DNA from: a virus
Reading direction: 5' to 3' (one strand)
Virus record (IMG/VR): IMGVR_UViG_3300032249_001455
Coordinates: 1-64,000 of that record
Length of the DNA: 64,000 bases
Made by a program: the position numbers and the translations under genes. Numbering within the stretch: the stretch's first letter is position 1; every line of letters begins with the position of its first letter. Positions 501 through 63,053 of the stretch are shown here, piece by piece. Under the pieces are notes generated by a model that worked only from the letters and a program-made list of their open reading frames with translations, ran no database searches and had not been told where the DNA came from.

Positions 501-579
501 TAGCCGTTTCAACCGGCTTGTCCGACAGGGAGAATAAAACATCCTTGTTTTTGGTATTTTTTATTTCGCCAAGTCGCAT
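1..579 (-). CDS. Thr/Pro-rich repeat protein, N-terminal part (runs off window)
   Basis: ATG at 579 on the minus strand reads [50 protein letters not shown]... and stays open to base 1; it follows the 585..1796 gene directly. Confidence 0.8.
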
Positions 580-584
580 TATTT

Positions 585-27600: not shown

Positions 27601-28019
27601 AGAACGCCTTCGGAGGGGGCTATCTTGAATCGTCCATAAAGGGCGCATACGCCTATTACTGCCTCTTGAACGGCTATACTCTGGGTCCGTTCAACGCGAT
27701 GGCCAGGGGCCTTCAGATGGACTTTGAGAGGCAGGCGTCCGTACTCAACATGCTTGACTCCATGGCGGCCAAGTGGAACAAGCGAGACTTCTTCAGCAAC
27801 CTTTCTCTTCGTATAGCCTACGGCGTCAGACCCGAACTCATAGACCTCTGCAAGGTTCCCAATGTCGGCAAGGTTCGGGCGGAGAGGCTTTATTCCGCAG
27901 GCATAAGAAGGCCCGCAGACATGCTCAAAAACCCCCATGTCGTCAAGAAGATACTGAATATGAAGGACGATAAGGTCATGGAAATATTGAAGGCGGCCAA
28001 ATCAATTGCTTCTTCTTAA
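24699..28019 (+). CDS. Ski2/Hel308-like DExH helicase containing an intein
   Basis: APTSVGKT, PLRAL, TGD, DESH, LSAT, TSTLAWG|CNFPA, QMAGRAGRPGYD and C-terminal HhH (VPNVGKVRAERL). Confidence 0.92.
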   Translation: MALTRLSDQLDLVSTADFPHGKYPFEKFNRVQSRVFEICDKNCNCVIAAPTSVGKTVCAELFMSHEVRVRGGKAIYLAPLRALAKEKIDDWTSPDSIFGDLKIAICTGDYRLTESRMRELNEADIIVMTSEMLNSRCRNMDSEKNDFLKDCGTIVVDESHLLTVPGRGDHLEVGLMKFSEVARDPRIVFLSATMPNVDQIADWVGCSLVKKDTYLVKSEYRPCPLDIHYETYEVSESYELTEEYKVSKAVDIVRNYPDDKFLVFVHSKSTGERVKKALQDAKVDCEFHNADLDKDKRHEVEKKFKYGKLRVIIATSTLAWGCYKHGSRVVMQDGSLKDVADIVVGDKLLCPVKDGFAPRKVVKEKTFRSDRGYFVKLECGDTMTVSEDHVFLAAKDRNSPEWCDVSYLSRGDFVAVPSDLKLWTDELADLDRFWYLVGFAFGDGCLVDCGFHADGSKKAVLDLCLGKMNRLSREVVRMFSEEFNYDAKVKNDTNGVPHVCTKKKIIVDKFLELLPLGRKDGKDDLPRAVYLNQLRIKSFLRGLFDADGGSEDHSNGNVSVGFTNISEKVVHSVRSLLLGFGIRSSFGRKRMVPSVINGRLQIPARKYSYRLRIFGVDNIQKFVNHIGFGCPDKTAKISKYLSSKITDASKDLIPARELIREHLDKNGMGASHFKSATNCDLYNSIKTQDCRRGTILKLISSARKRTRLNELVEKPYFWSRIKEIRKCRGGFFKEIEIEDPHAYIGCGAISHNCNFPARRVVITGVHRGMSEVETYDIFQMAGRAGRPGYDPRGDVYILLPDNNSEHHEDRLSSPKDIESQLLSYSGKEEDPHYKTLAFHLVSEIHHGQITTLQDIHHWYGKSLAYFQYNDLEDSIVDKTMELLMRVGAVKEVEGKYEVTSVGKVSSMMYYSPFDVADLRRNFKFLFGNGLQSNDMAVALALGNVDSIRMGFVTRAEKDEMEDFSSKVQNAFGGGYLESSIKGAYAYYCLLNGYTLGPFNAMARGLQMDFERQASVLNMLDSMAAKWNKRDFFSNLSLRIAYGVRPELIDLCKVPNVGKVRAERLYSAGIRRPADMLKNPHVVKKILNMKDDKVMEILKAAKSIASS
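25662..26954 (+). mobile_element. Intein with LAGLIDADG homing endonuclease (431 aa)
   Basis: Starts with Cys (CYKHGSRV), ends SHN before +1 Cys; block B SEDHVF; LVGFAFGDG and FLRGLFDADG; inserted in helicase motif V. Confidence 0.93.
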
Positions 28020-51135: not shown

Positions 51136-51563
51136 GTCCCGAACTAGAACAGAAACTGACAGAAAAGTTCCCCGAGTTGTTCAATGGCAGGTCCAAGCCG
51201 AAGTCGGAGTCGCTCATGGCCTTCGGCTGCGAGCACGGCGACGGATGGTTCAACATAATCCTCTGCGCGTGCGATGCCATAGAAAACCACCTGAAGGCAT
51301 CGGCCTGCAACTCCAGGATGGAAACCCGTTCCGACTACGAGTTCTTCCAGATAAAGGAGAAGTTCGGCACGCTCAGGGTCTATGACAACGGACACGACGA
51401 GTACATAGCCGGCGTCATAAGAATGGCGGAGAACATGAGCGCCTTCACGTGCGAGGTCACGGGAAGACCCGGTCGTCTGTGCAGAAAGGGACACTGGTAC
51501 AGGACTCTCTGCGACGAGCAGGCAGAGAAGGACGGCTACGAGTCCGCGGAGAAGGATGCCTGA
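51132..51563 (+). CDS. Conserved phage hypothetical protein
   Basis: GDGW, QIKEKFG.LR.Y, CE..G.PG, W..TLC motifs. Confidence 0.8.
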   Translation: MSPELEQKLTEKFPELFNGRSKPKSESLMAFGCEHGDGWFNIILCACDAIENHLKASACNSRMETRSDYEFFQIKEKFGTLRVYDNGHDEYIAGVIRMAENMSAFTCEVTGRPGRLCRKGHWYRTLCDEQAEKDGYESAEKDA

Positions 51564-53140
51564 TGCCAACCGCAGTCGATCTCTATTCGGGGGTGGGTGG
51601 CTGGTCTCTAGGACTCAGGATGGCTGGGATAGATGTCGTCTCGTCCTACGAGTGGTGGAACAGGGCCAACGACACTAACCTCCGCAACAACGGCCACAAG
51701 ACCGAGTGCCTGGACATAAGGCAGCTTCCCTCCTCGTCTGTTCCGAAGGTAGACCTGATCGTCGGAAGCCCCCCTTGCACCCACTTCTCCCTCGCCAACA
51801 GGGGAGGCAAGGGAAACATATACGAGGGACTCAAGGATGTGGAGAAGTTCCTTGAGATCGTGGACGCCATAAAACCCCGCTTCTGGGCCATGGAGAACGT
51901 GCCCCGGCTCGCCACGATCATGGAGAGAGAACTCTGTCAGGAGGGCGTGCTGCACAGGTTTGCCGGTCTCAACCCCAGGATCATGGTACTCGACGCCTCC
52001 GAGTGGGGAGTGCCGCAGAGAAGGCAGAGGTGCATCGCGGGCAACTTTGACTTTGACCTCCTCTTCTCCTACCGTGACGGCCTTCCGAACCGCTCCCTCG
52101 GAGACGTGATCTCCTCCCTTTCCTCCGATCCTGTTCAAGACCCCATATACGGGACTTCTCTTCCTCAATCTCGCTTGTTGGATCACGATCCCGAGGACGT
52201 TCTCTCCCCCGAGGAGGAGAGGATAAATCGGGAGATGAAGACATTTCATCCGGTCTACAACAACATGTCGTTTCCCGACGACCCCCACAGGCCTTCTAGG
52301 ACGGTTACGGCGACATGCACTAGGGTTTCGCGTGAAAGTATCGTTGTGTGCACGGAGAAGGGTTTTAGAAGGCTCACTGTGAGGGAACGCGCTTGCCTGC
52401 AGTCCTTTCCCCTAAACTACCAGTTTTACGGGGACAGCCATTCGCAGAAGCTGAAGATGGTGGGCAACGCAGTTCCGCCCCTTCTCTCCTTCTATATAGC
52501 TCAAGCGATGCTCGGAACCCCCGTTTCCAATCTTCTTGACCCCTCTTCCGCAATATCGGTTTTTTCTATCCCTTCGGAATCTCCTGCGAAGACGAAGCCT
52601 GACAAGCCGGGATGCTCCTATTCGGCACAGAGGCGATTCCGCTCCGCAATCCCCCATCTCAGATTCAAAAGTGGCGTCCGTTTTGAACTCGGCAATTCAT
52701 TTGCGGGAAAGTCTCCCGAATGGAGGATCAAGTTCTTTTTCGGCGGGTCAAAAAAGATAGGAGAGGTCGTCCTCGATGACCTGCTCTTGAAGGACATTGA
52801 AAAGGTCAAGGGTGTCAAGTCAAAAATTGCCAAAGCCAGAAAGGCGTGCGATAAGGTCTCTGAAACCATCTCCGGCACCTCCTCCAGCAACCTCCAGCAC
52901 GCATGGACGCACTGCGAGGGAGGTTGCCTGCACCCGCATTCGCTCGTGGACGCCATAGGCGATGCCGTCGGCTCTATGATCGCAGAGGACGCCTCCGGGC
53001 TTTCTTCCGAGGTTGTGCGAGGCGTGATGGCTTCTATGGGCAACCCTCCCGGATGGGAGAAGGTTGTCCGCAACGCCCCCGCCGTGTTCACCGGGCTTCT
53101 GGTGGGTTGCATAGTCAACGGCATGCTGGAGAAATTCTAA
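51563..53140 (+). CDS. DNA (cytosine-5) methyltransferase with C-terminal extension
   Basis: DLYSGVGG, GSPPC, ENV, GVPQ.R.R, R.LT.RE.A.LQSFP, GNAVPP. Confidence 0.92.
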   Translation: MPTAVDLYSGVGGWSLGLRMAGIDVVSSYEWWNRANDTNLRNNGHKTECLDIRQLPSSSVPKVDLIVGSPPCTHFSLANRGGKGNIYEGLKDVEKFLEIVDAIKPRFWAMENVPRLATIMERELCQEGVLHRFAGLNPRIMVLDASEWGVPQRRQRCIAGNFDFDLLFSYRDGLPNRSLGDVISSLSSDPVQDPIYGTSLPQSRLLDHDPEDVLSPEEERINREMKTFHPVYNNMSFPDDPHRPSRTVTATCTRVSRESIVVCTEKGFRRLTVRERACLQSFPLNYQFYGDSHSQKLKMVGNAVPPLLSFYIAQAMLGTPVSNLLDPSSAISVFSIPSESPAKTKPDKPGCSYSAQRRFRSAIPHLRFKSGVRFELGNSFAGKSPEWRIKFFFGGSKKIGEVVLDDLLLKDIEKVKGVKSKIAKARKACDKVSETISGTSSSNLQHAWTHCEGGCLHPHSLVDAIGDAVGSMIAEDASGLSSEVVRGVMASMGNPPGWEKVVRNAPAVFTGLLVGCIVNGMLEKF

Positions 53141-53702
53141 TTAAGACGCGTGAGCAGATCATTGAATCCATGTGTCTCACATGGCGACACGACTACGGGC
53201 TGGACAAGAATGGATTCGGCACTGGCATGACGAATGCAGAACGCAATACTTTATACGCCTCCCGCCAGAAAACCCAGTCCCCTTTAGGGGCTGGGATGAA
53301 TGGCGGTTAACTAAATAAAATTAACACTATAGTAAGTATGAGATTCGGGACGGAATCTTTGTACTTCGGTACTAGAAGCCGACTCCCTTTAGGGGGTCGG
53401 AGCGTTCACGGCGCCAAATGGCACAACTTTTTGACAACGACATCGCCCCCCACATGGATTTCAAAAAGGTTCCGAGAAAGACCGAAATCGTCCACGACGG
53501 CATCATCAAGATTCAGTCTTTCGAACTGACGGAACCTGAAAAGAAGAAGATCGCCCTCGGCCTCAAGTACGGCCCCGCCGCCGCGGCGATGAGGGACGAC
53601 GGCACCTTCTGGGAGTCCGAAACGCCCCCCAAGGAGCCGTGGAGAAGATGGTTGTTCAGGAAATTTCTAGGAACACAGGCTGGAAAGCGGGTTTCATCTT
53701 GA
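53140..53702 (+). pseudogene. Phage gene split by mini-element 1
   Basis: Removing 53255-53409 gives a continuous frame (I)KTREQIIESMCLTWRHDYG...ERNTL-W-RQMAQLFDNDIAPH; start codon reads ATT. Confidence 0.8.
53255..53409 (+). mobile_element. Non-autonomous IS200/IS605-type mini-element, copy 1 (155 bp)
   Basis: After TTTAT, ends TCAC, no TSD, two subterminal hairpins with TTTA loops; near-identical copy at 57386. Confidence 0.9.
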
Positions 53703-54010
53703 AAGAGTCGACTTCACGAATATTCTGGTGTTTGTCTTGGATTGTCAATTTCACTTTGATTTCGCTTGTTATTTCGAACCTGATTGATCCCAAACCGCCC
53801 TTCAAAGACAATCTTCCAGAACCGCCCATACTGAAACTTTCGGACTATCCAAAAACGCAGGAACATTGTAAGGCATGTCCCCAATGCCGGGCGAGATGGG
53901 ATTTGATCGAAAAGAATCAGATCACATGGGACAGCCCCGTCTGCTGCGGCGAAGGATTTGAAATCGGAATGCAGGAATTCATAGAAAAGTTGAAGAAAGT
54001 TGAAAAGTAA
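53699..54010 (+). CDS. Hypothetical membrane-anchored protein with CxxC motif
   Basis: Hydrophobic N-terminus, HCKACPQC; start uncertain. Confidence 0.55.
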   Translation: MKESTSRIFWCLSWIVNFTLISLVISNLIDPKPPFKDNLPEPPILKLSDYPKTQEHCKACPQCRARWDLIEKNQITWDSPVCCGEGFEIGMQEFIEKLKKVEK

Positions 54011-54013
54011 AAC

Positions 54014-54274
54014 ATGTGGAATAGAAACATAAAAGAAATACCGATTGGTACGAGGCTGTTGCTTCTTTCCAAGCCGAAAACGAAAGACAAACGCAGATTT
54101 GTCGCCATCGCCGCCTTGGAGGAGTGGGGCGGCAAGAAAATGCTCATCTACCCCACGGGATACCCGGAACTGATGAGAATGTACGGCTGCAAGAAGGGGG
54201 ACGTGTCTGAATTTGAGGCCTGGGCATATCTTGAGGAAAGTCCACTTGAATCCCGAACAGTCTCCAAGCCGTAG
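54014..54274 (+). CDS. Hypothetical protein
   Basis: 86-aa ORF. Confidence 0.6.
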   Translation: MWNRNIKEIPIGTRLLLLSKPKTKDKRRFVAIAALEEWGGKKMLIYPTGYPELMRMYGCKKGDVSEFEAWAYLEESPLESRTVSKP

Positions 54275-54361
54275 ATTGGGATTGAACCATGACAGAAAAA
54301 TTTGAACCCTACGCCTAAAAGGGACACTCACGACCACGGTCATGTAAAATTCTGAATCATT

Positions 54362-54389
54362 TTGAGATGCCTCTAAAGTCTGTTATAAT
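54362..54389 (+). promoter_or_regulatory. Extended -10 sigma70 promoter
   Basis: TTGAGA-16-TATAAT with TGn extension; GGAGG RBS downstream. Confidence 0.7.
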
Positions 54390-54409
54390 CGGTGCGGAGG
54401 ACTTCCTAA

Positions 54410-54853
54410 ATGGACACTAACTACAAGTCATGGACTATAAACAATATGAATTCCGAATATACATGGGAGATCAAGAGCAAAGATTACAAATGGCCAACGA
54501 CGGTCGCCACCATCCCGGGCGTTACGGTGGCCTCCACCTACTTTGAGCCTCTCCCTTCTCCCACCGAGGAGTCCATGATTGAGGATATTATGAACCGCAC
54601 GGAAGATCGGGGATTCTTCAAGGATGTGGTTGACTGGCTAGACAAAGAGGCTCCGAGGAGACTTCAGAGCGTCCTGAAGGAACTATATTCGCATGTCGGT
54701 TCGGTCACGTACGACCTTTTGTGCGAGGTTCTTTATCGCATAGGATTCAGGACGAGCGAGCTGATAGAGCGAAGGATGATCCTCGGCCCGTCCAACAACT
54801 GGGTGGCGGAATATTTCAAGGACTTCCCTCCCGGCTCAAGGAACGACCCGTGA
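54410..54853 (+). CDS. Hypothetical protein
   Basis: 147 aa, GGAGG RBS. Confidence 0.7.
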   Translation: MDTNYKSWTINNMNSEYTWEIKSKDYKWPTTVATIPGVTVASTYFEPLPSPTEESMIEDIMNRTEDRGFFKDVVDWLDKEAPRRLQSVLKELYSHVGSVTYDLLCEVLYRIGFRTSELIERRMILGPSNNWVAEYFKDFPPGSRNDP

Positions 54854-54933
54854 AAATTCTTGTCACCGGCGGTGCCGGATTCATAGGCAGTCACATTGTG
54901 GACGGCATCCTTTCCTCGGGTCACTCCGTTGAC
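54850..54933 (+). pseudogene. N-terminal remnant of NAD-dependent epimerase/dehydratase
   Basis: GTG-KILVTGGAGFIGSHIVDGILSSGHSV, after which similarity stops. Confidence 0.75.
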
Positions 54934-55237
54934 TCTCAAGAAACGGATCAGGCGGGAAATCCAGGATTCTTTTTCGTTGTTTGCATATTTCTTGCGTCGT
55001 CTTTTCTTTTCTGCGATCAAATTAACAGCGGCCTCCGCCGCATTGCGTGCGTTTTTGTGTTCCATTAAATTGAAACAAAGCATTTCTTGTGCCACAGAAA
55101 AGACCGAATTTTCCGTCAAATGAAAGGGAATGCCATGAAATATAAAGGTTTGTTTTGCTGATGGCTTCAAATATAATGGCCGACGATGATTCTGAGCGGA
55201 GCGCCAAGATCGTTAGTCTTCTCAAAAAGGTCAGGGA

Positions 55238-55825
55238 GTGGATGGAAAGGAGTCTGAGTTGAAAGTTTATATCGGACCCTACAAGAACTGGTGGGGACCA
55301 TACCAGATCGCCGACTTGCTGCGATACGTGGGATTTTCAAAATCCAAAACGCACCGGGTCGGCGAATGGCTCGCGGATACGCCCCTTTCGGACCTGTGCG
55401 AGTGGATACACGCCCGTCGCAAGAGAACCGTTAGGGTCGTGGTTCACGACTACGACGTATGGGGAATGGACAACACCATCGCGCTCATCGCCCTTCCTCT
55501 CCTCAAGAGACTCAAGGAGAAGAAGCATGGTTCCCCTCATGTGGACGACGAAGATGTGCCTGAGCATCTTAGGTCCACGGTCGCCAAGCCCTTGACCGAG
55601 GAGGAGGCGAAAAACGGATACTCGGACAACAACTTCCACCTGCGCTGGGAATGGGTGATTGACGAGATCATCTGGGGGTTTGAGAACATGATCGCGGACG
55701 ACGCGGGCGAGACCGAATTCCACAAGGACGGCAAGTTTGACATAGAGGCCTCTAGGAAGTTCCACGACCGAATCCAGAACGCCATGCGCCTGTTCGGCAA
55801 GTACCTTCAAGGAATGTGGCATTGA
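55238..55825 (+). CDS. Conserved phage hypothetical protein
   Basis: KVYIGPY, D.W.MD.T.A....P.L..LK..KHG.P.VD, LFGKY. Confidence 0.8.
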   Translation: MDGKESELKVYIGPYKNWWGPYQIADLLRYVGFSKSKTHRVGEWLADTPLSDLCEWIHARRKRTVRVVVHDYDVWGMDNTIALIALPLLKRLKEKKHGSPHVDDEDVPEHLRSTVAKPLTEEEAKNGYSDNNFHLRWEWVIDEIIWGFENMIADDAGETEFHKDGKFDIEASRKFHDRIQNAMRLFGKYLQGMWH

Positions 55826-56175
55826 AAATGACAAAACAACCAAGGACATGGTTCATTGACTTCGACGGCACGCTCGTGACCCAGCGGAGCCACATGATGG
55901 AGACCGACACCATCCTCGAGGGAACCAAGGCTTTCTTCGATGAGGTGGTGGATGAACTGGATCATGTGGTCATCACGACCGCGAGGACGTGCGATGACAA
56001 GGAACGCATCGAGAGGTTCCTAGAGTCCCACGGCATAAGGGTCGACCATGTGATATGCGGTCTGCCCACCGGGGCGAGGATGCTCGTCAATGACATGAAG
56101 CCCGACGGAACCAAGACCGCATACGCATTCAACCTAGAGAGGGACAGGGGAATAGACAATGCAATTTTCAAATGA
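55816..56175 (+). CDS. HAD-family phosphatase-like protein
   Basis: FIDFDGT, TTAR, R.LVND motifs. Confidence 0.75.
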   Translation: MALKMTKQPRTWFIDFDGTLVTQRSHMMETDTILEGTKAFFDEVVDELDHVVITTARTCDDKERIERFLESHGIRVDHVICGLPTGARMLVNDMKPDGTKTAYAFNLERDRGIDNAIFK

Positions 56176-56334
56176 AGTCGACATGATTCAGAGCGTCGTC
56201 ATAACATTCAGCGACGGATTTAAGGCGACCTTCTCGGGTCCGGCGGCCTGTTTTGAGGGCGAGGAAAGGCGGATTGAAGATATCTACTTTACTGAGCCGA
56301 AGCCTCTACCCGCCGGCTGCAATTGGGGGACCAC

Positions 56335-56913
56335 ATGAAGACATTCAGCGAATGGGCGGGTAGCCAGCCGACAGAGGAAATGAAGTCTCTGTTTGAGAAA
56401 AGAACCCGTAGACATATTGCTCTCGTGGGCGAATTCTGTGACAGAATCGCAGAGCACGATGGCCGCTTCAAGGAACTTCTGGATAGAAAGAAATTCCACG
56501 ACGACAGCAAGTTCAAGGAGCCGGAGTACACCCCTTACCTGTTCGTGACTTGGAAGTACAAATGCAGGAAGGACGGCGAGGAATTCAAGGTTCCGAAGGA
56601 GATAGAGGACAGGATGCACGAGGCCACCCTCCACCATGTCACCACCAACTCCCACCACCCCGAGTACCACAGCCCGAGGAAGGACGGCCTCATCAACAAG
56701 GAGAACAGGGACGCGCCCCCAGAGGAGATCGTGGATGCCACAAGCATGCCCGAACTCGACATCGCCGAGATGTGTGCCGACTGGATGGCAATGTCCAAGG
56801 AACTCGGCAGCAACCCCAAGGACTGGGCCGACAAGAATGTCAATGTGAGGTGGAAGTTCACAGAAGGACAGAAAAAACTGATCTACGACATCATCGGGGA
56901 GTGCTGGGAATGA
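56335..56913 (+). CDS. DUF5662-like HD-superfamily protein
   Basis: HDDSK, HH...N.HHPEY, D..EM.ADW motifs. Confidence 0.75.
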   Translation: MKTFSEWAGSQPTEEMKSLFEKRTRRHIALVGEFCDRIAEHDGRFKELLDRKKFHDDSKFKEPEYTPYLFVTWKYKCRKDGEEFKVPKEIEDRMHEATLHHVTTNSHHPEYHSPRKDGLINKENRDAPPEEIVDATSMPELDIAEMCADWMAMSKELGSNPKDWADKNVNVRWKFTEGQKKLIYDIIGECWE

Positions 56914-57230
56914 GCCGATACTATTTCAAGGAGCCGAAAAAGGGTCTGTATCCCACTGAGGGGCTTTCCCTGAAGCTCTACAGGCTCCTCACGGAGAAGG
57001 GAAAGGACATGAAGAGGTCGGGCACCTTTTCAAAAGATGCCTGGACACAATATGTCATTTCTTTGGGGTGCGAATTCACAGATGAAACCTTTGTTCTGGA
57101 TTCAGAAAGGGAAATCATATTCCGCGACGAACATCATTTCACCCAGTTGAAGGACAGCAAGGCGTGGGACAGGCTGATAAAGGTTGATTTTGAAACCGCC
57201 ATGAGGATCGCCACCCTAGGGCTGCCGTGA
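56910..57230 (+). CDS. LGxP-motif paralogue 1
   Basis: KLYRLL..K, W.QYV..LG, C-terminus AMRIATLGLP. Confidence 0.75.
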   Translation: MSRYYFKEPKKGLYPTEGLSLKLYRLLTEKGKDMKRSGTFSKDAWTQYVISLGCEFTDETFVLDSEREIIFRDEHHFTQLKDSKAWDRLIKVDFETAMRIATLGLP

Positions 57231-57334
57231 GGAAATAACATGATTAATGCCATAAAAGTTCTCTTCCTGATTGTCTTCCACTTGGGGGTCGCCATGTTCG
57301 CCGACGACGTTTTGGGCTTGTTTCGTTTCGTTTG

Positions 57335-57969
57335 ATGTTCGCAGAAAAACCCCAGACGTTGAAGGCGCCCGACGACGTCATTTATACGCCTCCCGCCCAG
57401 AAAACCCAGTCCCCTTTAGGGGCTGGGATGAATGGCGGTTAACTGTGTAAAAAATAAAAATTAACACTATAGTAAGTATGAGATTCGGGACGGAATCTTT
57501 GTACTTCGGTACTAGAAGCCGACTCCCTTTAGGGGGTCGGAGCGTTCACTACTCAAACGGCGCTTCAGGCACGGTGGAGTCCATACACATAGGAGGGCGA
57601 ACCGAGGTCGTCAAGGTGACGGGGGTCAGGCTGACCAAGCACTCCGGGTATTGCAACAAGACAAAATGGGGAAGGGAGACATGCCTGTGGAGGCTTGACG
57701 CCGACATAGAACAACCCGAGGGGAGGAAGAACTACTTCGCTCCCCATCTAGACGGCATGGTGGACGTGAAGCAGAAATCCGGCCAACTAACCGAGCACGG
57801 GGAACGCCCTTGGGATGCTCTGACCAACATGTGCGTGGGCTGGGACCAGTTGAGATACGCAAACATCGTCTTCAAGGACGACAAACCAGTTTCTTTACAT
57901 TTCACTCATCTGAAGTACAATGGGGAAAAGTGGATTGAAATTGCAAGTTTTGAGGCCGATTTCAAATGA
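57335..57969 (+). pseudogene. Gene interrupted by mini-element 2 (possibly rescued by in-frame ATG at 57478)
   Basis: Removing 57386-57549 gives MFAEKPQTLKAPDDVIY-YSNGASGTVES... in frame. Confidence 0.75.
57386..57549 (+). mobile_element. Non-autonomous IS200/IS605-type mini-element, copy 2 (164 bp)
   Basis: After TTTAT, ends TCAC, no TSD; matches copy 1 apart from 9 nt of indels. Confidence 0.9.
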
Positions 57970-58286: not shown

Positions 58287-58655
58287 ATGGAGAGAAGGAT
58301 GAACGCGACGCCGAATATGACGAACGAGCAGAAGACAGAAAAACTGTACGGAATTTTCAGGAACAAACTGGACGAAATAAGGAACAACGCCCGCGTGGGC
58401 CACTCATTCAAAACGCTGGACGCCGACACCGTGAGGAGATATGACAACATCGGTGCCATAATCTCGGACAAAATCGAGGAGTACCTCTCCGAGCAAGGGC
58501 CCCATGTGAGAAGCCTTCACGCCGACAATCTGGTGCATCTCATCAATGAGGGTCCGTTGGACGCGGTTGCGATACGAAACCACGTGAATTACGACAATAT
58601 CATCGTGATTGAAAGGGAATACGCCGAGAAGATACTTGTGCTGGGACTGCCATGA
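58287..58655 (+). CDS. LGxP-motif paralogue 2
   Basis: KLYGIF..K, EYL, ...EYAEKILVLGLP. Confidence 0.75.
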   Translation: MERRMNATPNMTNEQKTEKLYGIFRNKLDEIRNNARVGHSFKTLDADTVRRYDNIGAIISDKIEEYLSEQGPHVRSLHADNLVHLINEGPLDAVAIRNHVNYDNIIVIEREYAEKILVLGLP

Positions 58656-58990
58656 ACGAAGCCGCTGAATTCAACGATGATCGCGGGTGGCATTCGCTCT
58701 TGGGCGGCCGTCGAGCCCCCGACCCCTTCTTGGGCAACGGCCCCATCCACGACCGATTCCAGAATTTTTTGTACGACCAGCACGACCTCGCGAATATTCA
58801 ATTGAAAGAATGGGGCGAATTAGCCTTCAGGAGAAGGATGGAGAAAGCGGGAGCCAGATTTATTCTTCCCGTCGCTAGTCCATGGTCTTCTAAAAAGCCC
58901 AGTGATTGGGTTTTTGATTCTCCCTTTGGCGGATATCTGGTCATAGACAGGGAAGCCGCCGAGAAGATATTGGTTTTAGGCCTGCCATGA
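58652..58990 (+). CDS. LGxP-motif paralogue 3
   Basis: ...EAAEKILVLGLP; ATGA overlap. Confidence 0.75.
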   Translation: MNEAAEFNDDRGWHSLLGGRRAPDPFLGNGPIHDRFQNFLYDQHDLANIQLKEWGELAFRRRMEKAGARFILPVASPWSSKKPSDWVFDSPFGGYLVIDREAAEKILVLGLP

Positions 58991-59310
58991 GAGATCTTTT
59001 TGAAATCGTGAAGGCCGCAAATCAACATCCCCACCACGATGACCCGAGGAAGATGAAGGTCTATGACATTCTTCAAAGAAAGTATACAGACTGCTTTGAA
59101 AACAAAGAGATAAAACAATCAATCAATTTTGACTATTTGGGTCTCGCCAAGGCAAAGATGAAGTGGCATGAATATCTCAAGTCGCTCGGAATGACTTTCA
59201 ACAAGAATGACGGCATCTTTGACCCCTCGTGTCATCTGGAGTGGCAACAAAGGTATATTCAAATTCCCGAAGACATGATGGACAAGATACTGACACTGGG
59301 TCTGCCATGA
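58987..59310 (+). CDS. LGxP-motif paralogue 4
   Basis: KVYDIL..KY, WHEYLKSLG, DP, IPEDMMDKILTLGLP. Confidence 0.8.
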   Translation: MRDLFEIVKAANQHPHHDDPRKMKVYDILQRKYTDCFENKEIKQSINFDYLGLAKAKMKWHEYLKSLGMTFNKNDGIFDPSCHLEWQQRYIQIPEDMMDKILTLGLP

Positions 59311-59555
59311 ACCAAGAAAAGGCCAATCTGATTGAAAATCTTCTCGTTCTTAAATATGATCGGGACTTCTACATGACGACGAAATCATGGGAAGATTATA
59401 TACATTCCATCGGCTGTTCTTTCAGTCCCATAGTCGTGGAGCGCTATGAGGCATATGATCCCGACGTATTAGGGCAGGCGAGCGGAGTGGTGCGTAAAAT
59501 ATACATCCCGTTAGAGATCGGTCTCAAGGTCTTGACTCTCGGAGGTTTCCCGTGA
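59307..59555 (+). CDS. LGxP-motif paralogue 5
   Basis: WEDYI.SIG, DP, IPLEIGLKVLTLGGFP. Confidence 0.8.
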   Translation: MNQEKANLIENLLVLKYDRDFYMTTKSWEDYIHSIGCSFSPIVVERYEAYDPDVLGQASGVVRKIYIPLEIGLKVLTLGGFP

Positions 59556-59842
59556 ATCTTTCGTACGAGACAAAGAAGAAACTGAACGAGATGCTGTGGA
59601 AAAGGTACTTTGAAAAGAGTCGTGGCGAGATTTGGAGTCCGGACAGAAGCGAGTGGAAAGAATACCTGTTCAGTTTGGGCTGTGTTTTGGGAGTAGAGGG
59701 GAATGGGTGGCGACACATGGCTCCTCCGCCCAACAAGATTGAGGGAACCGTGGTGCTTAATGACCCGGCAGACTCGCTCCATGGAGTGGCCTTTCCCAAC
59801 GAGGTTATTACAAGAGTCTTGATTCTCGGAGGTTTCCCGTGA
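59552..59842 (+). CDS. LGxP-motif paralogue 6
   Basis: WKEYLFSLG, DP, FPNEVITRVLILGGFP. Confidence 0.8.
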   Translation: MNLSYETKKKLNEMLWKRYFEKSRGEIWSPDRSEWKEYLFSLGCVLGVEGNGWRHMAPPPNKIEGTVVLNDPADSLHGVAFPNEVITRVLILGGFP

Positions 59843-59875
59843 AAAACAAAATCTACCGCATCTGGGGCTTCTGTC

Positions 59876-60181
59876 ATGGATTATGAGAAAATTGCCCGCG
59901 CCTTCAAGGAGTTGGCGTATAGGGCGAATGGCCTCCGGTTGGAGAGCTCCGAAGCCGGCGAGACCTTCACCTGGGTGGGCGACGGGCTTCCTCAAAAATG
60001 GAAGAGTCTCAAGGAGCTGGAAGTTTACTTTGAAGGCGTGGGTGGCAAGGTAACACCGTACGCCGAAAAAAGAGAAGGCTACCTTGTTGTGAACATAAGT
60101 GAGGACGAATGGATGCCGCAAGTTTTAGAAGTCCCCATGGAATTCGCCATGAAGGTCCTGACGCTAGGAGGATTCCCGTGA
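59876..60181 (+). CDS. LGxP-motif paralogue 7
   Basis: VPMEFAMKVLTLGGFP. Confidence 0.8.
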   Translation: MDYEKIARAFKELAYRANGLRLESSEAGETFTWVGDGLPQKWKSLKELEVYFEGVGGKVTPYAEKREGYLVVNISEDEWMPQVLEVPMEFAMKVLTLGGFP

Positions 60182-60501
60182 AGTGGGACAAGGAATCGCT
60201 TGAGAAGGTGACTACGATCCTTGCCGACCTCCCGCTGGAGAAGTGGCGCGAATTCAGCCAGGAAATGGACGCACGGGACGCAATTACATCCTCTTGGGCG
60301 GCGACGGTCTGGCCCTGTCCCGTCGGAACCGCGCACATAAGCCAGGGGCATGACCCCAAGCCAGCATACCTGAAGTTGACAAACAAAGTCGTGATAAGGA
60401 ATCCGTTCCCGCACCACCACTTTGTGATAGCCACCACTCCCTACATCGAGGTGGATGCCGACATGGCGATGAAGGTCCTCGTATTGGGAGGTGTCCCTTG
60501 A
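60178..60501 (+). CDS. LGxP-motif paralogue 8
   Basis: WREF, NP, DMAMKVLVLGGVP; GTGA overlap. Confidence 0.8.
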   Translation: MKWDKESLEKVTTILADLPLEKWREFSQEMDARDAITSSWAATVWPCPVGTAHISQGHDPKPAYLKLTNKVVIRNPFPHHHFVIATTPYIEVDADMAMKVLVLGGVP

Positions 60502-60773
60502 AATTAGACTCCGATCAGTACTTCAAGCTCGCCCAGCTCCTAAATGACAAGTACAATCGCGACTTCTGGATGGACGACGAGGCGTGGAAGAAATACTTGA
60601 CTTCATTCGGCGGCGCCAGGATGGACACGAACAACCCCCGCATAAAGACGATCTTTTTTCAGACGCTCAATGACCCCGTCGTCGTTCTGGTGGACCCCAA
60701 CGACCTTGACTGTGTCTTGGCTATTCCCGACGAGATCGCCTTGAAGGCATTGGCGCTGGGCTGTTTCGCATGA
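60498..60773 (+). CDS. LGxP-motif paralogue 9
   Basis: LLNDKY, WKKYLTSFG, DP, IPDEIALKALALGCFA. Confidence 0.8.
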   Translation: MKLDSDQYFKLAQLLNDKYNRDFWMDDEAWKKYLTSFGGARMDTNNPRIKTIFFQTLNDPVVVLVDPNDLDCVLAIPDEIALKALALGCFA

Positions 60774-61138
60774 TGCTTGACACGGACAAGTTGTACCTCC
60801 TCCTTAACGACAAGTGGCTTGAGGTAGGTCTTCTTTGGCGCAGCGCCTTCCGGCGGCAGATCGGTCTCGACGGTTCTCCGGCCCGCCGCACGACCCACGG
60901 ACACGCCGAACGAAATCTGTGGGACGAATACCTGCGGGAGATGAACATAGTCCACCCCGCAGTAGAAGTTCATTTTCTCGGAAGGGAGACCGAACACTAC
61001 TTCGTCGAGAACCCGTCGGGGAAGGGGGGTTCAAGGGACATCTGGAAGTTGGGCATCCCCAAGGAGCTCGCCATGAAGGCCATTATTCTCGGATACTTCC
61101 CCGACAGCCCCTCGCTGGAACGCCTGAGGAACTCATGA
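60770..61138 (+). CDS. LGxP-motif paralogue 10
   Basis: KLYLLLNDK, WDEYL, IPKELAMKAIILGYFPDSPS. Confidence 0.8.
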   Translation: MMLDTDKLYLLLNDKWLEVGLLWRSAFRRQIGLDGSPARRTTHGHAERNLWDEYLREMNIVHPAVEVHFLGRETEHYFVENPSGKGGSRDIWKLGIPKELAMKAIILGYFPDSPSLERLRNS

Positions 61139-61524
61139 AGCGAAATTTCAAGATGGGGAAGGGCGAAAAGGACGCGACCCAGAAGATATACAAACTGCTT
61201 GACGACAGACTTTTGCGGATATCTGACGAGATATACGAGGAAAGCGACCCGGCCGAATCTAGCAAGTTAAGCATGGTTAAAATAGAGAAATTCTTTCAGC
61301 TGGAGTCCGCTTGGACGGCGTACCTTGAAGGATTGGGTCTCAAGAGGACAATGTGTTCGCACAAGGACTGGCGGCGCGAGGTCTCGATAGACAACTGCAG
61401 AATCAGCGACCCTCTCTGTGTCAGTATGTTCATCGATGTTCCAAAGGAACTAGCCCTGAAAGTCCTTGTTCTCGGATACCTTCCCGACAGCCCTTCAATC
61501 AAGAAGATGATTCAACCCGCATGA
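61135..61524 (+). CDS. LGxP-motif paralogue 11
   Basis: KIYKLLDDR, WTAYLEGLG, DP, VPKELALKVLVLGYLPDSPS. Confidence 0.8.
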   Translation: MKRNFKMGKGEKDATQKIYKLLDDRLLRISDEIYEESDPAESSKLSMVKIEKFFQLESAWTAYLEGLGLKRTMCSHKDWRREVSIDNCRISDPLCVSMFIDVPKELALKVLVLGYLPDSPSIKKMIQPA

Positions 61525-61913
61525 CAAAAGACAAAATTTACCACCTGCTCAACGAAAAACTCTTCAACATCGCCGATTTGCACTATCAAAACGCCGGCGC
61601 GGAATGGAGGACCGTAGAAAACAAAGAACTTTGGGAAACCTACCTAAAAGAGATGGGCATGGTCTTATTCGTACGATCAGGGTGGTTCAAGGAGAACGAT
61701 ATGGAGGACGAAATCGAGAACCTCTCCTTCTCGGACCTCCAAGGCCAGAAAGTTGACATTGAATGGATCAAAGAAAACCTTATAATAATCCAGGATCCGC
61801 TTGCGCAGTACCATAGAGTTGGCATCCCCAAGGAACTGGCCATGAGCGCCATGACCCTCGGATATTTCCCCGACAGCCCTTCAATTCAAAAGATGCGAGA
61901 ACGCAATGAATAG
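61521..61913 (+). CDS. LGxP-motif paralogue 12
   Basis: KIYHLLNEK, WETYLKEMG, DP, IPKELAMSAMTLGYFPDSPS. Confidence 0.8.
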   Translation: MTKDKIYHLLNEKLFNIADLHYQNAGAEWRTVENKELWETYLKEMGMVLFVRSGWFKENDMEDEIENLSFSDLQGQKVDIEWIKENLIIIQDPLAQYHRVGIPKELAMSAMTLGYFPDSPSIQKMRERNE

Positions 61914-62244
61914 CGAATCAATCAAGACCGAAGCTGCCCTCTTCATATTTTATATTTTTGTCGGACTGGTTCTTTTTCTTGTTGGTTGTATAGGCTTGTA
62001 TTTTGCTTTAAAGAGACAGCCGTCAAACCGAGAGACGCAGGTCTGTTCCGGTTGCGGTGCCGAATGGACTACACTCCACAAAGATCGGTTTTGGAAGCCT
62101 TCGGCCCCCATTACTCGTTGCCCGGAGTGCCCTATGACGGAAGAGGAGTTCGAGAAACTTAAGGAACAGGTTCGGCGAGGAGATAAGCCGGATCTGAAGA
62201 ATTTGCCGTCAATTACCCACCCCCTAAAGGGAGTGGGCTTGTAA
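61906..62244 (+). CDS. Membrane-anchored zinc-ribbon protein (C-terminus extended by mini-element 3)
   Basis: TM helix, CSGC...CPEC. Confidence 0.7.
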   Translation: MNSESIKTEAALFIFYIFVGLVLFLVGCIGLYFALKRQPSNRETQVCSGCGAEWTTLHKDRFWKPSAPITRCPECPMTEEEFEKLKEQVRRGDKPDLKNLPSITHPLKGVGL

Positions 62245-62334
62245 ATCACCGGAGCCTTCTCCACAGTGTCTACTATAAGCCAATTGACACATGGCTCGTT
62301 CCTCAACAGCTTGCCGTTTCCTTGCCGAATTCAG
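62208..62334 (-). mobile_element. Non-autonomous IS200/IS605-type mini-element 3 (127 bp), tnpB right-end-like
   Basis: On the minus strand follows TTCAT and ends caagcccactccc-ttta-gggggtgggtaattgac; removal restores the ttgccATGAac stop/start overlap. Confidence 0.8.
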
Positions 62335-62667
62335 ATGAACACTGACACTGCCATCTTGGAAACCAAGTTGTACGGTCTTCTGCTCAAGAAGTCGGAGGAA
62401 ATCTGCAGAAATAACTCGGCTAGGTGTCCGGCCTTCTGGACTCCTTCAATCATACATAAGTGGGCGGAATATCTTGAGGGCATTGGATGCTTAAAAATAG
62501 ATATCGTCCGTCCGCGGCGAGGGTGGAGCCATGCGAAGTACGCGAAATCCAAGGCCCCCGAAGGGACGCAGTGCATCGTGAACCCGGCGAATCTGGGCTT
62601 CCACAGCTTCGTTATCATCCCAAACGATCTTGCCCTGAAGGCTCTCGCCTTGGGAGGGTTCCCGTGA
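62335..62667 (+). CDS. LGxP-motif paralogue 13
   Basis: KLYGLLLKK, WAEYLEGIG, NP, IPNDLALKALALGGFP. Confidence 0.8.
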   Translation: MNTDTAILETKLYGLLLKKSEEICRNNSARCPAFWTPSIIHKWAEYLEGIGCLKIDIVRPRRGWSHAKYAKSKAPEGTQCIVNPANLGFHSFVIIPNDLALKALALGGFP

Positions 62668-63053
62668 GGGACAAAGTCTTCAAGCTCATCCTCTGCAGGA
62701 TTCAAGAAATGTCCACCTGGTACAGCAGGAACTTCAACTTCCACGACAGGGCTAAAATAGATGAATGGCCGTGCAGCCAATACTCCATGATCCAGAACTA
62801 CCTGGAGGAGATCGGATGCTCCCAAGTCCGATGCCCCAAGGAGGTCTTTTTGGAACTGAAGTACAGCCCCGGCGGCCGCAGGACCGCAGAACTCCTGAAC
62901 ATTAGCGAAGGGAAATTCTTCCTTTTGGCTCATCCTTGGGAGTCCACGACTCTAATCCTCATTCCGTACGAACTGGGCGTGAAGGCTGCCGCGCTCGGCG
63001 AGTTCCCAATCGGGCCAAAAACGTCTAGAATGCTCGGTCAGGGATTGAAATGA
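62664..63053 (+). CDS. LGxP-motif paralogue 14
   Basis: KVFKLIL, NYLEEIG, HP, IPYELGVKAAALGEFP. Confidence 0.78.
   Translation: MRDKVFKLILCRIQEMSTWYSRNFNFHDRAKIDEWPCSQYSMIQNYLEEIGCSQVRCPKEVFLELKYSPGGRRTAELLNISEGKFFLLAHPWESTTLILIPYELGVKAAALGEFPIGPKTSRMLGQGLK

What the first reader, a model, noticed from the sequence alone, without database searches (positions are those of the whole stretch)
53250..53430. Mini-element 1: TAM-specific, scarless IS200/IS605-type insertion retaining a minimal omegaRNA fold
Seen: 155 bp after TTTAT, ending TCAC, no TSD; removal rebuilds codon TGG and the frame ...NTL-W-RQMAQ. The left hairpin is cccagtcccc-ttta-ggggctggg. The right ~70 nt folds as agattc/gaatct (loop gggacg), gtac-TTCG-gtac and ccgactccc-ttta-gggggtcgg, and loop ggacg can pair with terminal cgttc as a pseudoknot. 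A TATAGT -10-like box at 53328 would start transcription near 53340. Established: IS200/IS605 elements insert 3' of a 4-5 nt motif without duplication and excise precisely; TnpB uses a right-end RNA with a pseudoknot plus 3' flank as guide. Inference: a protein-free element making a guide RNA (guide ggcgccaaatggcac...) that could direct a trans-encoded TnpB against the empty allele, enabling homing between co-infecting phages.
Basis: partly seen in the sequence, partly recalled or inferred. Interest (0 to 1): 0.8.

Follow-up and report, generated by a model that had tools for sequence, protein, structure and literature searches.

The report
Guide-RNA mini transposon in phage genes
Two copies of a 155-164 bp protein-free jumping element sit inside two genes of a freshwater tailed phage; each keeps only a transposon left end and a compact guide-RNA module like that of related full-size TnpA/TnpB elements in other phages, which is a known kind of element in an unusually small and clear form.

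Summary
Window 53255-53409 (155 bp) and 57386-57549 (164 bp) are 95% identical. Each lies directly 3' of TTTAT, ends in TTCAC, and has no target duplication. Homologues of both interrupted genes run straight through the insertion points. One DNA contig of another run skips exactly 53255-53409.

The element is a non-autonomous IS200/IS605-family element (PATE type). It consists of a left end, a variable AT-rich linker and a 73-nt right end. The same left end and TTTAT motif flank full-size elements in other viral contigs, one with a Y1 tnpA, a tnpB and a cargo gene.

A covariance model built only from the 3' ends of those tnpB genes matches 4 of 4 mini copies over its full length (67 bits).

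Not shown:
- transcription
- use by a TnpB
- homing between phages

The 73-kb record, estimated 44% complete, has no tnpA. Its only tnpB is 31% identical to the cognate type and sits beside a different motif (TTCAT).

PATEs that encode omegaRNAs for trans use are already in print, so this is a new member of a known kind.

The parts
53250..53254 (+). TTTAT transposon-adjacent motif (TAM) of copy 1, inside the codons ACT TTA T(GG) of gene 1
   Evidence: TTTAT directly precedes 4 of 4 mini copies and 8 of 8 evaluable loci with the same left hairpin.
53255..53409 (+). Mini element copy 1, 155 bp, with no protein gene of its own
   Evidence: The boundaries are fixed by the conserved W codon and by a DNA contig that skips exactly these 155 bases.
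53255..53312 (+). Left end. An imperfect hairpin at 53273-53295 lies inside an outer stem (53262-53267 with 53301-53306) and is preceded by AGAAAA (53267-53272), the presumed DNA guide for the TAM.
   Evidence: Near-identical to the left end of full-size elements, including the tnpA+tnpB element in L078. 51 of 59 columns are invariant among the 4 mini copies.
53313..53336 (+). AT-rich variable linker with the motif ACACTATA (53324-53331).
   Evidence: 12 of 33 columns are invariant among the 4 copies. ACACT(A/G)TA is kept in 7 of 7 aligned left-end regions. Not called a promoter by the consensus scan.
53337..53409 (+). Compact omegaRNA-type scaffold that doubles as the right end: hairpin 1 at 53341-53358 (loop 53347-53352), hairpin 2 with a UUCG loop at 53361-53372, TAGAAG at 53373-53378, right-end hairpin with a UUUA loop at 53379-53400, tail at 53401-53409.
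   Evidence: Model R1, built only from tnpB-linked sequences, matches positions 1-76 at 67.3 bits, E about 1e-16. 71 of 73 columns are invariant among the 4 copies.
53348..53352 (+). Pseudoknot 5' strand GGACG, in the loop of hairpin 1. It pairs with CGTTC at 53403-53407.
   Evidence: all 5 pairs are standard pairs in every sequence, 3 with changes on both sides and 1 with a change on one side. One search gives the same pairing from a script.
53410..53429 (+). Flank that would be the guide part of a read-through RNA. TTTAT plus this sequence is the empty allele.
   Evidence: Positional inference. The empty allele exists in DNA. 0 of 22 distant homologues carry TTTAT at this site.
53140..53254 (+). 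5' part of interrupted gene 1, a small conserved phage gene of unknown function
   Evidence: No Pfam or PHROG family.
53410..53702 (+). 3' part of interrupted gene 1
57381..57385 (+). TTTAT motif of copy 2
57386..57549 (+). Mini element copy 2, 164 bp. It differs from copy 1 by one extra C in the left end and by an 8-base insertion plus 3 substitutions in the linker.
   Evidence: Related contigs in runs X2 and X4 lack it.
57477..57549 (+). omegaRNA-type scaffold and right end of copy 2, identical to copy 1
   Evidence: 67.3 bits
57335..57385 (+). 5' part of interrupted gene 2
57550..57969 (+). 3' part of interrupted gene 2

Best explanation
Shown:
- The feature is a non-autonomous IS200/IS605-family element of the PATE type, present twice in this tailed-phage record.
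- It has three parts: a ~58-nt left end with the hairpin that a Y1 TnpA would bind, a variable AT-rich linker, and a 73-nt right end.
- The right end is a complete copy of the compact RNA scaffold found at the 3' end of one tnpB lineage. That scaffold is a stem whose loop forms a pseudoknot with the last bases before the transposon end, a short tetraloop hairpin, and the right-end hairpin with a UUUA loop.
- Full-size relatives with the same left end, the same TTTAT motif and the same right-end type carry a cargo gene, a Y1 tnpA and a tnpB.

Inferred:
- The mini element arose by internal deletion of such a full-size element.
- A TnpA supplied in trans inserted it as single-stranded DNA 3' of TTTAT, without duplication.
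- Excision would restore the interrupted genes exactly.
- Both copies lie in the sense direction of the genes they interrupt. Read-through or the element's own ACACTATA region could therefore produce an RNA that ends in the flanking sequence.
- With a cognate TnpB supplied in trans, that RNA would direct cutting of TTTAT plus flank, which is the empty allele. Repair from an element-bearing genome would then copy the element in.
For: Insertion anatomy:
- Two copies are 95% identical.
- TTTAT precedes 4 of 4 mini copies, and there is no duplication.
- Gene 1 is uninterrupted in 22 of 22 related loci and gene 2 in 4 of 4.
- A DNA contig in run X3 skips exactly 155 bases. Relatives in X2 and X4 lack copy 2.

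Family:
- The exact left hairpin occurs in 9 other viral contigs. In 8 of the 8 that can be evaluated, TTTAT lies at the same distance.
- L078 carries TTTAT, the left end, a cargo ORF, a Y1 tnpA (Pfam E 1.6e-22), a tnpB of 375 aa and a right end of the same type.
- The first ~58 nt of the left end are near-identical between the mini and full-size elements.
- Y1 tnpA scores over the Pfam cut-off in 2 of 5 viral records searched. One of them is G002, which shares gene 2 with this phage at 75% identity.

RNA module:
- Model R1, built from 5 tnpB-linked sequences only, hits 4 of 4 mini copies full length at 67 bits. Other right-end types score 32 bits or less.
- With L077 added (its TnpB is 45% identical to the query TnpB), 99.4% of 175 cells pair and 20 of 25 pairs change on both sides. 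0 of 500 shuffles reach this, and slid controls reach at most 48.6% paired.
- The pseudoknot was not in the model. It is 100% paired, with 3 of 5 pairs changed on both sides.
- Among the 4 mini copies, 71 of 73 scaffold columns are invariant, against 12 of 33 in the linker.
- The layout matches the published ISDra2 omegaRNA: the bases just 5' of the guide pair with a far-upstream segment next to stem 1, and the last stem has a UUUA loop at -20 to -17. Here the loop is at -22 to -19 (PMC10097598, passages read).
Against: - No RNA run holds this sequence, so transcription is unknown.
- The consensus scan finds no sigma-70-type promoter in the element.
- The -10-like box varies among copies: TATAGT, TGTAAT, TGTAGT.
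- The 73,428-bp record has no Y1 tnpA. Its only tnpB is 31% identical to the cognate type and sits next to TTCAT, not TTTAT.
- The record is only about 44% complete, so this absence is weak evidence.
- The covariation shows that the scaffold was under RNA-level selection in the tnpB-bearing lineages. It does not show that the mini copies themselves are used, because the 4 mini copies are nearly identical and could simply be young.
- The alignment used for the pair counts was fitted to the nested stems by the model, though not to the pseudoknot.
- The empty-site contig is a single 151-nt contig at depth 2. It has 7 other differences, so it comes from a relative and is not proof of excision in this phage.
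- Rfam has no match.
Confidence: 0.8

Rival explanations
1. Inert relic. The element is a PATE moved by a TnpA in trans. Its RNA module is merely carried along from a recent deletion of a full-size element. It is not transcribed into a working guide RNA and gives neither the element nor the phage any advantage.
For: No cognate tnpB or tnpA in the 73-kb record. No promoter call. The four copies are so similar in the right end (71 of 73 invariant columns) that recency alone could explain the conservation. Part of the right end is needed by TnpA anyway.
Against: Hairpins 1 and 2 (53341-53372) lie outside the hairpin-plus-cleavage-site part that a Y1 transposase is known to use (recalled, not tested here). 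Even so, they are as conserved as the right-end hairpin, while the adjacent linker has diverged with indels. A second mini type in other viral contigs (L053, L056) likewise joins the left end to the whole RNA region of another tnpB type. Both window copies lie in the sense direction of transcribed genes.
Confidence: 0.3
2. The phage's own TnpB, encoded at 68,147-69,298 of the record and outside the window, uses the RNA of these two mini elements.
For: Its own 3' end has the same layout: a hairpin whose loop ATCAAC is complementary to the tail GTTGAT, a GNRA-loop hairpin, and a UUUA-loop right-end hairpin. It is the only tnpB in the record.
Against: It is 31% identical to the cognate TnpB type. 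Its element lies 3' of TTCAT and ends TTGAT, not TTTAT and TTCAC. Model R1 scores only its hairpins, at 22-26 bits.
Confidence: 0.08
3. A mobile regulatory cassette (terminator plus promoter) that shuffles between phage genes, unrelated to transposases.
For: There are hairpins at both ends, an AT-rich centre with a -10-like box, and look-alike single hairpins at 62216-62237 and at 68.1 kb of the record.
Against: Both copies lie inside conserved reading frames, not between genes. The ends are those of elements that carry tnpA and tnpB. The strict TTTAT rule and the exact empty site fit single-strand transposition. The look-alike hairpins belong to other IS605-type elements.
Confidence: 0.03
4. 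An RNA-level removable insert (self-splicing intron or translational bypass), so that the two genes stay functional.
For: Removing the element restores both reading frames exactly.
Against: No Rfam family reaches its gathering score anywhere in the window, and no intron family appears at E up to 10 in the element itself. At 155 bp it is far below the size of group I or II introns (general knowledge). The skip was seen in a DNA run, not in RNA.
Confidence: 0.02
5. An assembly artefact: a repeat wrongly placed in the contig.
For: Contigs of the likely source run X1 break inside both copies, and depth there is about 4 times the flanks (123-125 against 31).
Against: The two gene halves on either side fit in frame and match single genes in relatives. 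X1 record 1 runs from the left flank into the element to 53279, and record 4 runs from 53380 in copy 1 to 57426 in copy 2. The same element occurs in two further contigs.
Confidence: 0.02

Closest known systems
PATEs (palindrome-associated transposable elements) of IS200/IS605, as noted for Geobacillus stearothermophilus by Meers et al. 2023 (preprint PMC10055086; passages read)
   Same: A protein-free element bounded by IS200/IS605-type left and right ends. It shares its ends with tnpB-carrying elements and depends on TnpA in trans. The paper states that PATEs often encode omegaRNAs that would need a TnpB from another element.
   Different: This one sits in a phage genome and inside coding genes. 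It is only 155-164 bp, and its RNA scaffold is 73 nt. Its full-size relatives are phage-borne and carry an extra cargo gene. Supplements of that paper were closed, so I could not compare sizes or sequences of their PATEs.
ISDra2 TnpB omegaRNA (Nakagawa et al. 2023, PMC10097598; passages read)
   Same: The RNA sits at the right end of the transposon and its guide comes from the flank. A pseudoknot forms between the bases just 5' of the guide and a segment next to stem 1. The last stem is closed by a UUUA loop about 20 nt from the end. The 5' sequence upstream of stem 1 is not needed.
   Different: The ISDra2 scaffold is 116 nt with four stems and a triple helix. Here it is 73 nt with three hairpins, and the stem 2/3 region is reduced to a 4-8 bp tetraloop hairpin. 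The TAM is TTTAT, against TTGAT in that paper. There is no sequence similarity by Rfam or by eye. Binding and cleavage are untested.
IS605-family elements with tnpA and tnpB, found here in viral contigs L078 (record G005) and L079/L082 (record G002)
   Same: The same left end over about 58 nt, the same TTTAT motif, the same right-end and RNA type, and the same ACACTATA motif after the left end.
   Different: They are about 2 kb long and encode a cargo ORF, a Y1 TnpA and a TnpB of 375-387 aa. The mini element has lost all three. Its scaffold differs from theirs by many substitutions, most of them compensatory.
IStrons (IS605-type elements fused to a group I intron; bioRxiv 10.1101/2023.11.20.567912 and PMC13521648, seen in search listings and abstracts only)
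   Same: IS605-family elements that sit inside genes without necessarily destroying them. The same DNA encodes an RNA with a role beyond transposition.
   Different: There is no intron here, and no Rfam intron match. Nothing suggests removal from the mRNA.

Membership tests
IS200/IS605 family, non-autonomous (PATE-type) element | Inserts 3' of a fixed 4-5 nt motif without target-site duplication | tested here: met
   TTTAT precedes 4 of 4 mini copies and 8 of 8 evaluable relatives. The flanks rejoin without any duplicated base.
IS200/IS605 family, non-autonomous (PATE-type) element | Asymmetric ends with subterminal imperfect hairpins and no terminal inverted repeats | tested here: met
   The left hairpin starts 18 nt from the left end and the right hairpin stops 9 nt from the right end. 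Both are on the same strand and have a T bulge or a T-G pair. The termini ACGCC and GTTCAC are not inverted copies of each other.
IS200/IS605 family, non-autonomous (PATE-type) element | Precise (scarless) empty sites exist | tested here: met
   The joint 53254 to 53410 skips 155 bases in one DNA contig of run X3. Homologues are uninterrupted.
IS200/IS605 family, non-autonomous (PATE-type) element | Ends shared with elements that encode a Y1 (HUH) TnpA | tested here: met
   L078 has the same left end, a Y1_Tnp ORF (E 1.6e-22), a tnpB and the same right-end type. G002 has a Y1_Tnp match (E 1.9e-25) next to the cognate tnpB.
IS200/IS605 family, non-autonomous (PATE-type) element | Cleavage sites read by bases 5' of each hairpin (DNA guides) | tested here: inconclusive
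   Read by eye. The third base of the motif pairs with the base at -4 before the hairpin in 5 of 5 ends looked at: T:A, C:G, C:G, G:C, G:C. These are few ends and there is no statistics. The rule itself is recalled from IS608 work, not read here.
IS200/IS605 family, non-autonomous (PATE-type) element | Excision and insertion catalysed by TnpA on single-stranded DNA | not testable with these tools
   Needs an excision or transposition assay. There is no tnpA in the 73-kb record.
TnpB omegaRNA | Homologous to the RNA region that overlaps the 3' end of a tnpB gene and ends at the transposon right end | tested here: met
   Model R1, built from 5 tnpB-linked 3' ends, matches the mini copies over model positions 1-76, ending at the last base of the element, at 67 bits and E about 1e-16.
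TnpB omegaRNA | Pseudoknot between the bases just 5' of the guide and an upstream segment | tested here: met
   5 pairs, 100% standard pairs in 7 distinct sequences; 3 pairs changed on both sides and 1 on one side. The same logic appears in the record's own tnpB element and in the 62.2-kb element.
TnpB omegaRNA | Conserved secondary structure supported by covariation | tested here: met
   99.4% of 175 cells paired; 20 of 25 pairs changed on both sides; 0 of 500 shuffles reach this; slid controls reach at most 48.6%. Caveat: the nested stems were fitted by the model.
TnpB omegaRNA | Transcribed, with the flank as guide | not testable with these tools
   No RNA holder was listed.
TnpB omegaRNA | Bound by a TnpB and directs TAM-dependent DNA cleavage | not testable with these tools
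   Needs biochemistry. The cognate TnpB type was found only in other contigs.
Self-splicing intron or IStron | Group I or II intron core | tested here: not met
   No Rfam match at gathering score in the window. At E up to 10 in 53200-53460 there are only two chance-level matches, a CRISPR repeat and a snoRNA.
MITE of a DDE transposon | Terminal inverted repeats and a target-site duplication | tested here: not met
   Neither is present.

The most novel reading that the evidence does not exclude
The mini element is a free-standing guide-RNA gene carried by a phage. It makes a 73-nt omegaRNA plus flank and borrows TnpB and TnpA from full-size relatives in co-infecting phages or in the host. It thereby cuts element-free alleles of the same phage genes. 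This would drive its own spread (homing) and perhaps handicap competing phages. It would also show that a TnpB can work with a natural scaffold about two thirds the size of the 116-nt ISDra2 scaffold.
Probability: 0.3. Interest if true: 0.75.

Novelty: new member of a known kind. Interest (0 to 1): 0.5.

Why it matters
If the RNA module works, this would be a natural case of a TnpB guide RNA uncoupled from its nuclease and carried by a virus. [quoted passage not shown]

It also points to a compact candidate editing system. The components would be a TnpB of 375-387 aa, a scaffold of about 73 nt, and a TTTAT motif. The minimal RNA has in effect been marked out by a natural deletion.

Even without function, the locus is a clean worked example. 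It has two insertions inside conserved genes, an empty site in a related population, and autonomous relatives. It is therefore useful for annotating phage genomes, where such 150-bp inserts split genes and are easily missed.

Tried and rejected
- Rfam: nothing at gathering score in the whole window. Only two chance-level hits at E up to 10 in 53200-53460.
- tRNA/tmRNA scan: none.
- Exact right-hairpin pattern and a 20-nt right-end pattern in viral contigs: 0 hits each. The degenerate right-end pattern then worked.
- Mini element against 50,697 GenBank phage records (blastn, distant mode): no match.
- RNA evidence: no RNA holder listed, so nothing can be said on expression.
- Promoter: the sigma-70 consensus scan lists no site in either copy. 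I did not pursue other promoter types because the host is unknown.
- Cognate TnpB or TnpA in the metagenome contigs that carry the other two mini copies: tblastn found none in the held parts of L070 and L071. Only 14.8 kb of L071's 35.9-kb contig is held.
- Homologues of the gene upstream of the 62.2-kb element: none in 5 related viral records. Its empty site is therefore inferred from the reading frames only.
- Pfam and PHROGs gave no family for either interrupted gene.
- The first MAFFT alignment, A2, misaligned hairpin 2 and L077's right hairpin. I did not use it for pair counts and used model-based alignments instead.
- Supplementary files of papers were closed. The PATE lists of Meers et al. 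may bear on how unusual the size is.
- Not in print, as far as these searches show: searches returned no paper describing a protein-free omegaRNA element inside phage genes. I read passages of PMC10055086, PMC10097598, PMC13565253 and PMC10691335 only.
- Structure prediction, complex prediction, the atlas and the look-up of encoding contigs (closed) were not used.
Full report
CONTEXT. The window is bases 1-64000 of a 73,428-bp IMG/VR virus record. The record is linear and CheckV estimates it at 44% complete. It is a tailed phage. It encodes tail-fibre and baseplate-like proteins, a DnaB-type helicase, a family A polymerase, and a helicase that carries Hint and LAGLIDADG domains. The best-holding sequencing run is a metagenome. 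Two other holders, each with a small share, are labelled freshwater metagenomes.

OBSERVATION.
- TTTAT lies at 53250-53254.
- A 155-bp insert runs from 53255 to 53409, beginning ACGCC and ending GTTCAC.
- The left hairpin is at 53273-53295.
- On the right there are three hairpins: 53341-53358, 53361-53372 (UUCG loop) and 53379-53400 (UUUA loop).
- A 9-nt tail follows.

RNA folding of 53336-53409 returns exactly these hairpins (z -2.68; 1 of 200 shuffles folds as well). The whole element plus flank folds with z -4.82.

A second copy lies at 57386-57549. It is 164 bp and 95% identical, and it also follows TTTAT and ends TTCAC. The two copies differ by one C in the left end and by an 8-base insertion plus three substitutions in the AT-rich middle.

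IS IT AN INSERTION? Yes, on three lines of evidence.
- When the element is taken out in a script, both flanks join in frame.
- Homologues run straight through the site. In 22 of 22 related viral loci gene 1 reads ...LW-x-QMAQLFDN... with the W codon intact. In 4 of 4 loci gene 2 reads ...KAPEDIVY-HSLSAEGTVESIHIGG... or a more distant equivalent.
- Laying contigs of four runs on 52900-57900 gave a joint from 53254 to 53410 that skips 155 bases. It is one 151-nt DNA contig in run X3, at depth 2, with 7 other differences, so it comes from a close relative. Related contigs in X2 and X4 lack copy 2: 241-253 bases are replaced by 72-84.

In the likely source run the element bins have about four times the depth of the flanks (123-125 against 31). 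Several loose ends show the left end in other contexts, so the community holds more copies.

WHAT FAMILY? The exact left hairpin occurs in 9 other viral contigs. In the 8 that can be evaluated, TTTAT lies at the same distance upstream. Downstream of that left end the contigs carry several arrangements:
- a small cargo ORF plus a tnpB (L034, L035);
- a cargo ORF only, plus an RNA remnant and a duplicated right end (L036);
- no gene at all (L033, 253 bp);
- the left end joined directly to the RNA region of another tnpB type (L053 and L056, about 190 bp).

A degenerate right-end pattern found 12 viral and 13 genome loci. Eleven of the genome loci are in one Deltaproteobacteria MAG. At least three different upstream RNA types share the right-end hairpin and the ...GTTCAC end.

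The one metagenome scan found two more copies of this very mini element, L070 and L071. Both follow TTTAT and both lie in unrelated sequence.

THE PARENT TYPE. The tail of the mini element, AGCGTTCAC, pointed to the tnpB of L035, whose right end has the tail AGCATTCAC. Relatives of that TnpB were found in 6 viral loci, at 45-100% identity. Their 3' ends all have the same layout:
- a 6-bp stem with a 6-nt loop;
- two U residues;
- a tetraloop hairpin (GNRA, or CUUG in L077);
- TAGAAG;
- the right-end hairpin with a UUUA loop;
- a 9-nt tail.

L078 shows the complete element, about 2 kb: TTTAT, the left end, a cargo ORF, a Y1 tnpA on the opposite strand (Pfam E 1.6e-22, with one internal stop), a tnpB of 375 aa, and the right end.

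Record G002 has a Y1 tnpA (E 1.9e-25) beside a cognate tnpB and its RNA region. The same record holds the 75%-identical homologue of gene 2, so it is a relative of this phage.

The left ends of the mini and full-size elements are near-identical for about 58 nt. After a variable stretch they share the motif ACACT(A/G)TA in 7 of 7 sequences. I infer that the mini element is an internal-deletion derivative that keeps the left end, this motif and the RNA/right-end module.

THE RNA MODULE. I built covariance model R1 from five tnpB-linked 3' ends only (alignment A3).
- It matches 4 of 4 mini copies across all 76 model positions, at 67 bits with E about 1e-16, ending at the last base of the element.
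- Right ends of other types score 32 bits or less, mostly on the hairpin alone.
- With filters off it also finds L077, whose TnpB is 45% identical to the query TnpB, at 40.7 bits.

Pair counts were made on the model-based alignment of 7 distinct sequences, with the pseudoknot added by hand.
- 99.4% of 175 cells pair.
- 20 of 25 pairs show changes on both sides.
- 0 of 500 shuffles reach the observed values.
- Sliding the partners gives at most 48.6% pairing.

The pseudoknot joins loop positions 2-6 of hairpin 1 to tail positions 3-7. It was not part of the model. It is paired in every sequence, with 3 of 5 pairs changed on both sides: GAATG/CATTC, GGATG/CATTC, GGACG/CGTTC in the mini element, and GACTA/TAGTC in L077.

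One unpaired base lies before the pseudoknot strand and none after it, so the geometry is that of a classical H-type pseudoknot stacked on hairpin 1. This last point is my inference.

COMPARISON WITH ISDra2. The published ISDra2 omegaRNA (PMC10097598, passages read) has a 116-nt scaffold of four stems and a pseudoknot. In it:
- -5 to -3 pair with -105 to -103, next to stem 1;
- the last stem has a UUUA loop at -20 to -17;
- everything 5' of stem 1 is dispensable.

Here the UUUA loop is at -22 to -19, the pseudoknot uses -7 to -3, and hairpin 1 is the 5'-most part. The 73-nt module therefore has the same order of parts, but the stem 2/3 region is reduced to one small hairpin. It is a complete scaffold of its own lineage rather than a fragment.

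SELECTION WITHIN THE MINI COPIES. Among the four copies the invariant columns are 51 of 59 in the left end, 12 of 33 in the linker and 71 of 73 in the RNA module. The two changes in the module are a loop base (UUCG to UUAG) and GAAG to GAAT. L071 also has a compensatory change in the left hairpin. This pattern fits constraint on the module, including hairpins 1 and 2. From recalled knowledge of IS608, a Y1 transposase should not need those two hairpins. With four young copies, however, the evidence is weak.

WHO SUPPLIES THE PROTEINS? The 73-kb record has no Y1 tnpA. It has one tnpB (383 aa; Pfam TNB and OrfB_IS605 domains) at 68,147-69,298 on the minus strand, outside the window.

That gene lies in a 1,267-bp AT-rich element (GC 0.36 against 0.51 for the record) inserted 3' of TTCAT. 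Taking that element out would leave a stop and a start codon overlapping as ATGA (read). This TnpB is 31% identical to the cognate type, and its element ends TTGAT.

It is therefore an unlikely partner for the two mini copies. The cognate proteins would have to come from one of three places: the unsampled 56% of the genome, a co-infecting relative such as G002, or the host.

MECHANISM, with status of each step.
- Shown: single-strand-transposon anatomy, the TTTAT rule, scarless polymorphism, relationship to tnpA/tnpB elements, and a complete, covariation-supported RNA scaffold at the right end.
- Inferred: insertion by a TnpA in trans during phage replication.
- Inferred: transcription, either by read-through (both copies are in the sense direction of their genes) or from the ACACTATA region. 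A start about 7 nt after TATAGT would fall at the foot of hairpin 1.
- Inferred: loading into a cognate TnpB, cutting of TTTAT plus flank in element-free genomes, and copying-in by recombination.
- Bearing on reach: 0 of 22 distant homologues of gene 1 carry TTTAT at the site. Only close relatives, like the one seen in X3, would be targets.

KNOWN OR NEW? TnpB genes are common in phage records. 300 of 50,697 GenBank phage records match the cognate TnpB at E 1e-20 or better. Altae-Tran et al. 2023 list TnpB in viruses (PMC10691335, passages). Meers et al. 2023 already note PATE-like elements that often encode omegaRNAs needing a TnpB in trans.

The following are new here:
- this particular family;
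- its small size;
- its position inside phage genes;
- the very compact scaffold.

I file it as a new member of a known kind.

OTHER THINGS SEEN. The details are under Noticed in passing. In brief:
- a third protein-free element at 62208-62334, on the minus strand;
- the record's own tnpB element;
- an intein in a helicase;
- an Arr-like cargo gene in relatives;
- an ATT where gene 1 should start;
- a frame change in gene 2.

Noticed in passing
window 62208-62334 (minus strand): A third protein-free element of 127 bp lies 3' of GTTCAT, which is the reverse complement of the ATGAAC start of the next gene. It has a right-end hairpin with a UUUA loop and a tail AATTGAC that is complementary to GTCAATT in an upstream hairpin loop. 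This is the same layout as the record's own tnpB element. Its left end shares CGGCAAGGAAAC with that element but lacks a clear hairpin. Taking it out would leave ...KNLP, a stop and the next start overlapping as ATGA. Model R1 scores it at 29 bits.
   Followed up: partly
G000:C1:68131-69397 (minus strand; outside the window, locus L031): A tnpB-only IS605-type element of 1,267 bp, with GC 0.36 against 0.51 for the record. It is inserted 3' of TTCAT, exactly between a stop and a start codon. Its TnpB has 383 aa, and the best database relative is 96% identical. Its 3' end has a hairpin with loop ATCAAC matching the tail GTTGAT.
   Followed up: partly
window 24699-28019 (+): A DEAD/Helicase_C helicase of 1,106 aa is interrupted by Hint and LAGLIDADG domains, which points to an intein with a homing endonuclease. 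It is another selfish element in the same phage.
   Followed up: no
L072:811-1179 (+), and cargo ORFs in L032, L034, L036, L078: Full-size relatives carry a cargo ORF right after the left end, always starting MKSFNEW. In L072 it matches the Arr-ms (rifampin ADP-ribosyltransferase) Pfam family (E 5.1e-9, over the cut-off). The L078 cargo has no Pfam family; the L032, L034 and L036 cargos were not scanned.
   Followed up: partly
window 53140-53142: Gene 1 has ATT where its homologues have ATG or GTG before KTREQII. The codon overlaps the TAA stop of the upstream cytosine methyltransferase gene (51449-53140). This may be a non-canonical start, coupling to the upstream gene, or a decayed start.
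   Followed up: no
window 57241-57385: Upstream of copy 2, the membrane-helix part of gene 2 (MINAIKVLFLIVFHLGVAMF...) is in a different frame from the part that continues into the element-interrupted ORF. The relative L027 has a single ORF of 170 aa. This could be a frameshift or a split gene.
   Followed up: no
window 58600-62700: A run of small paralogous genes ends in ...(A/V)L(T/A)LG(G/Y)FP. It shows up as direct-repeat families D3, D8 and D11. The gene downstream of the 62.2-kb element belongs to this group.
   Followed up: no
window 1-582 and 28563-28886: Long in-frame tandem repeats with periods of 12 nt (24 copies) and 18 nt (13 copies).
   Followed up: no
L053:8290-8476 and L056 (same sequence): A different mini element of about 190 bp occurs in other viral contigs. 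It has a near-identical left end after TTTAT, joined directly to the whole RNA region of another tnpB type. This shows that 'left end plus RNA module' derivatives arose more than once.
   Followed up: partly
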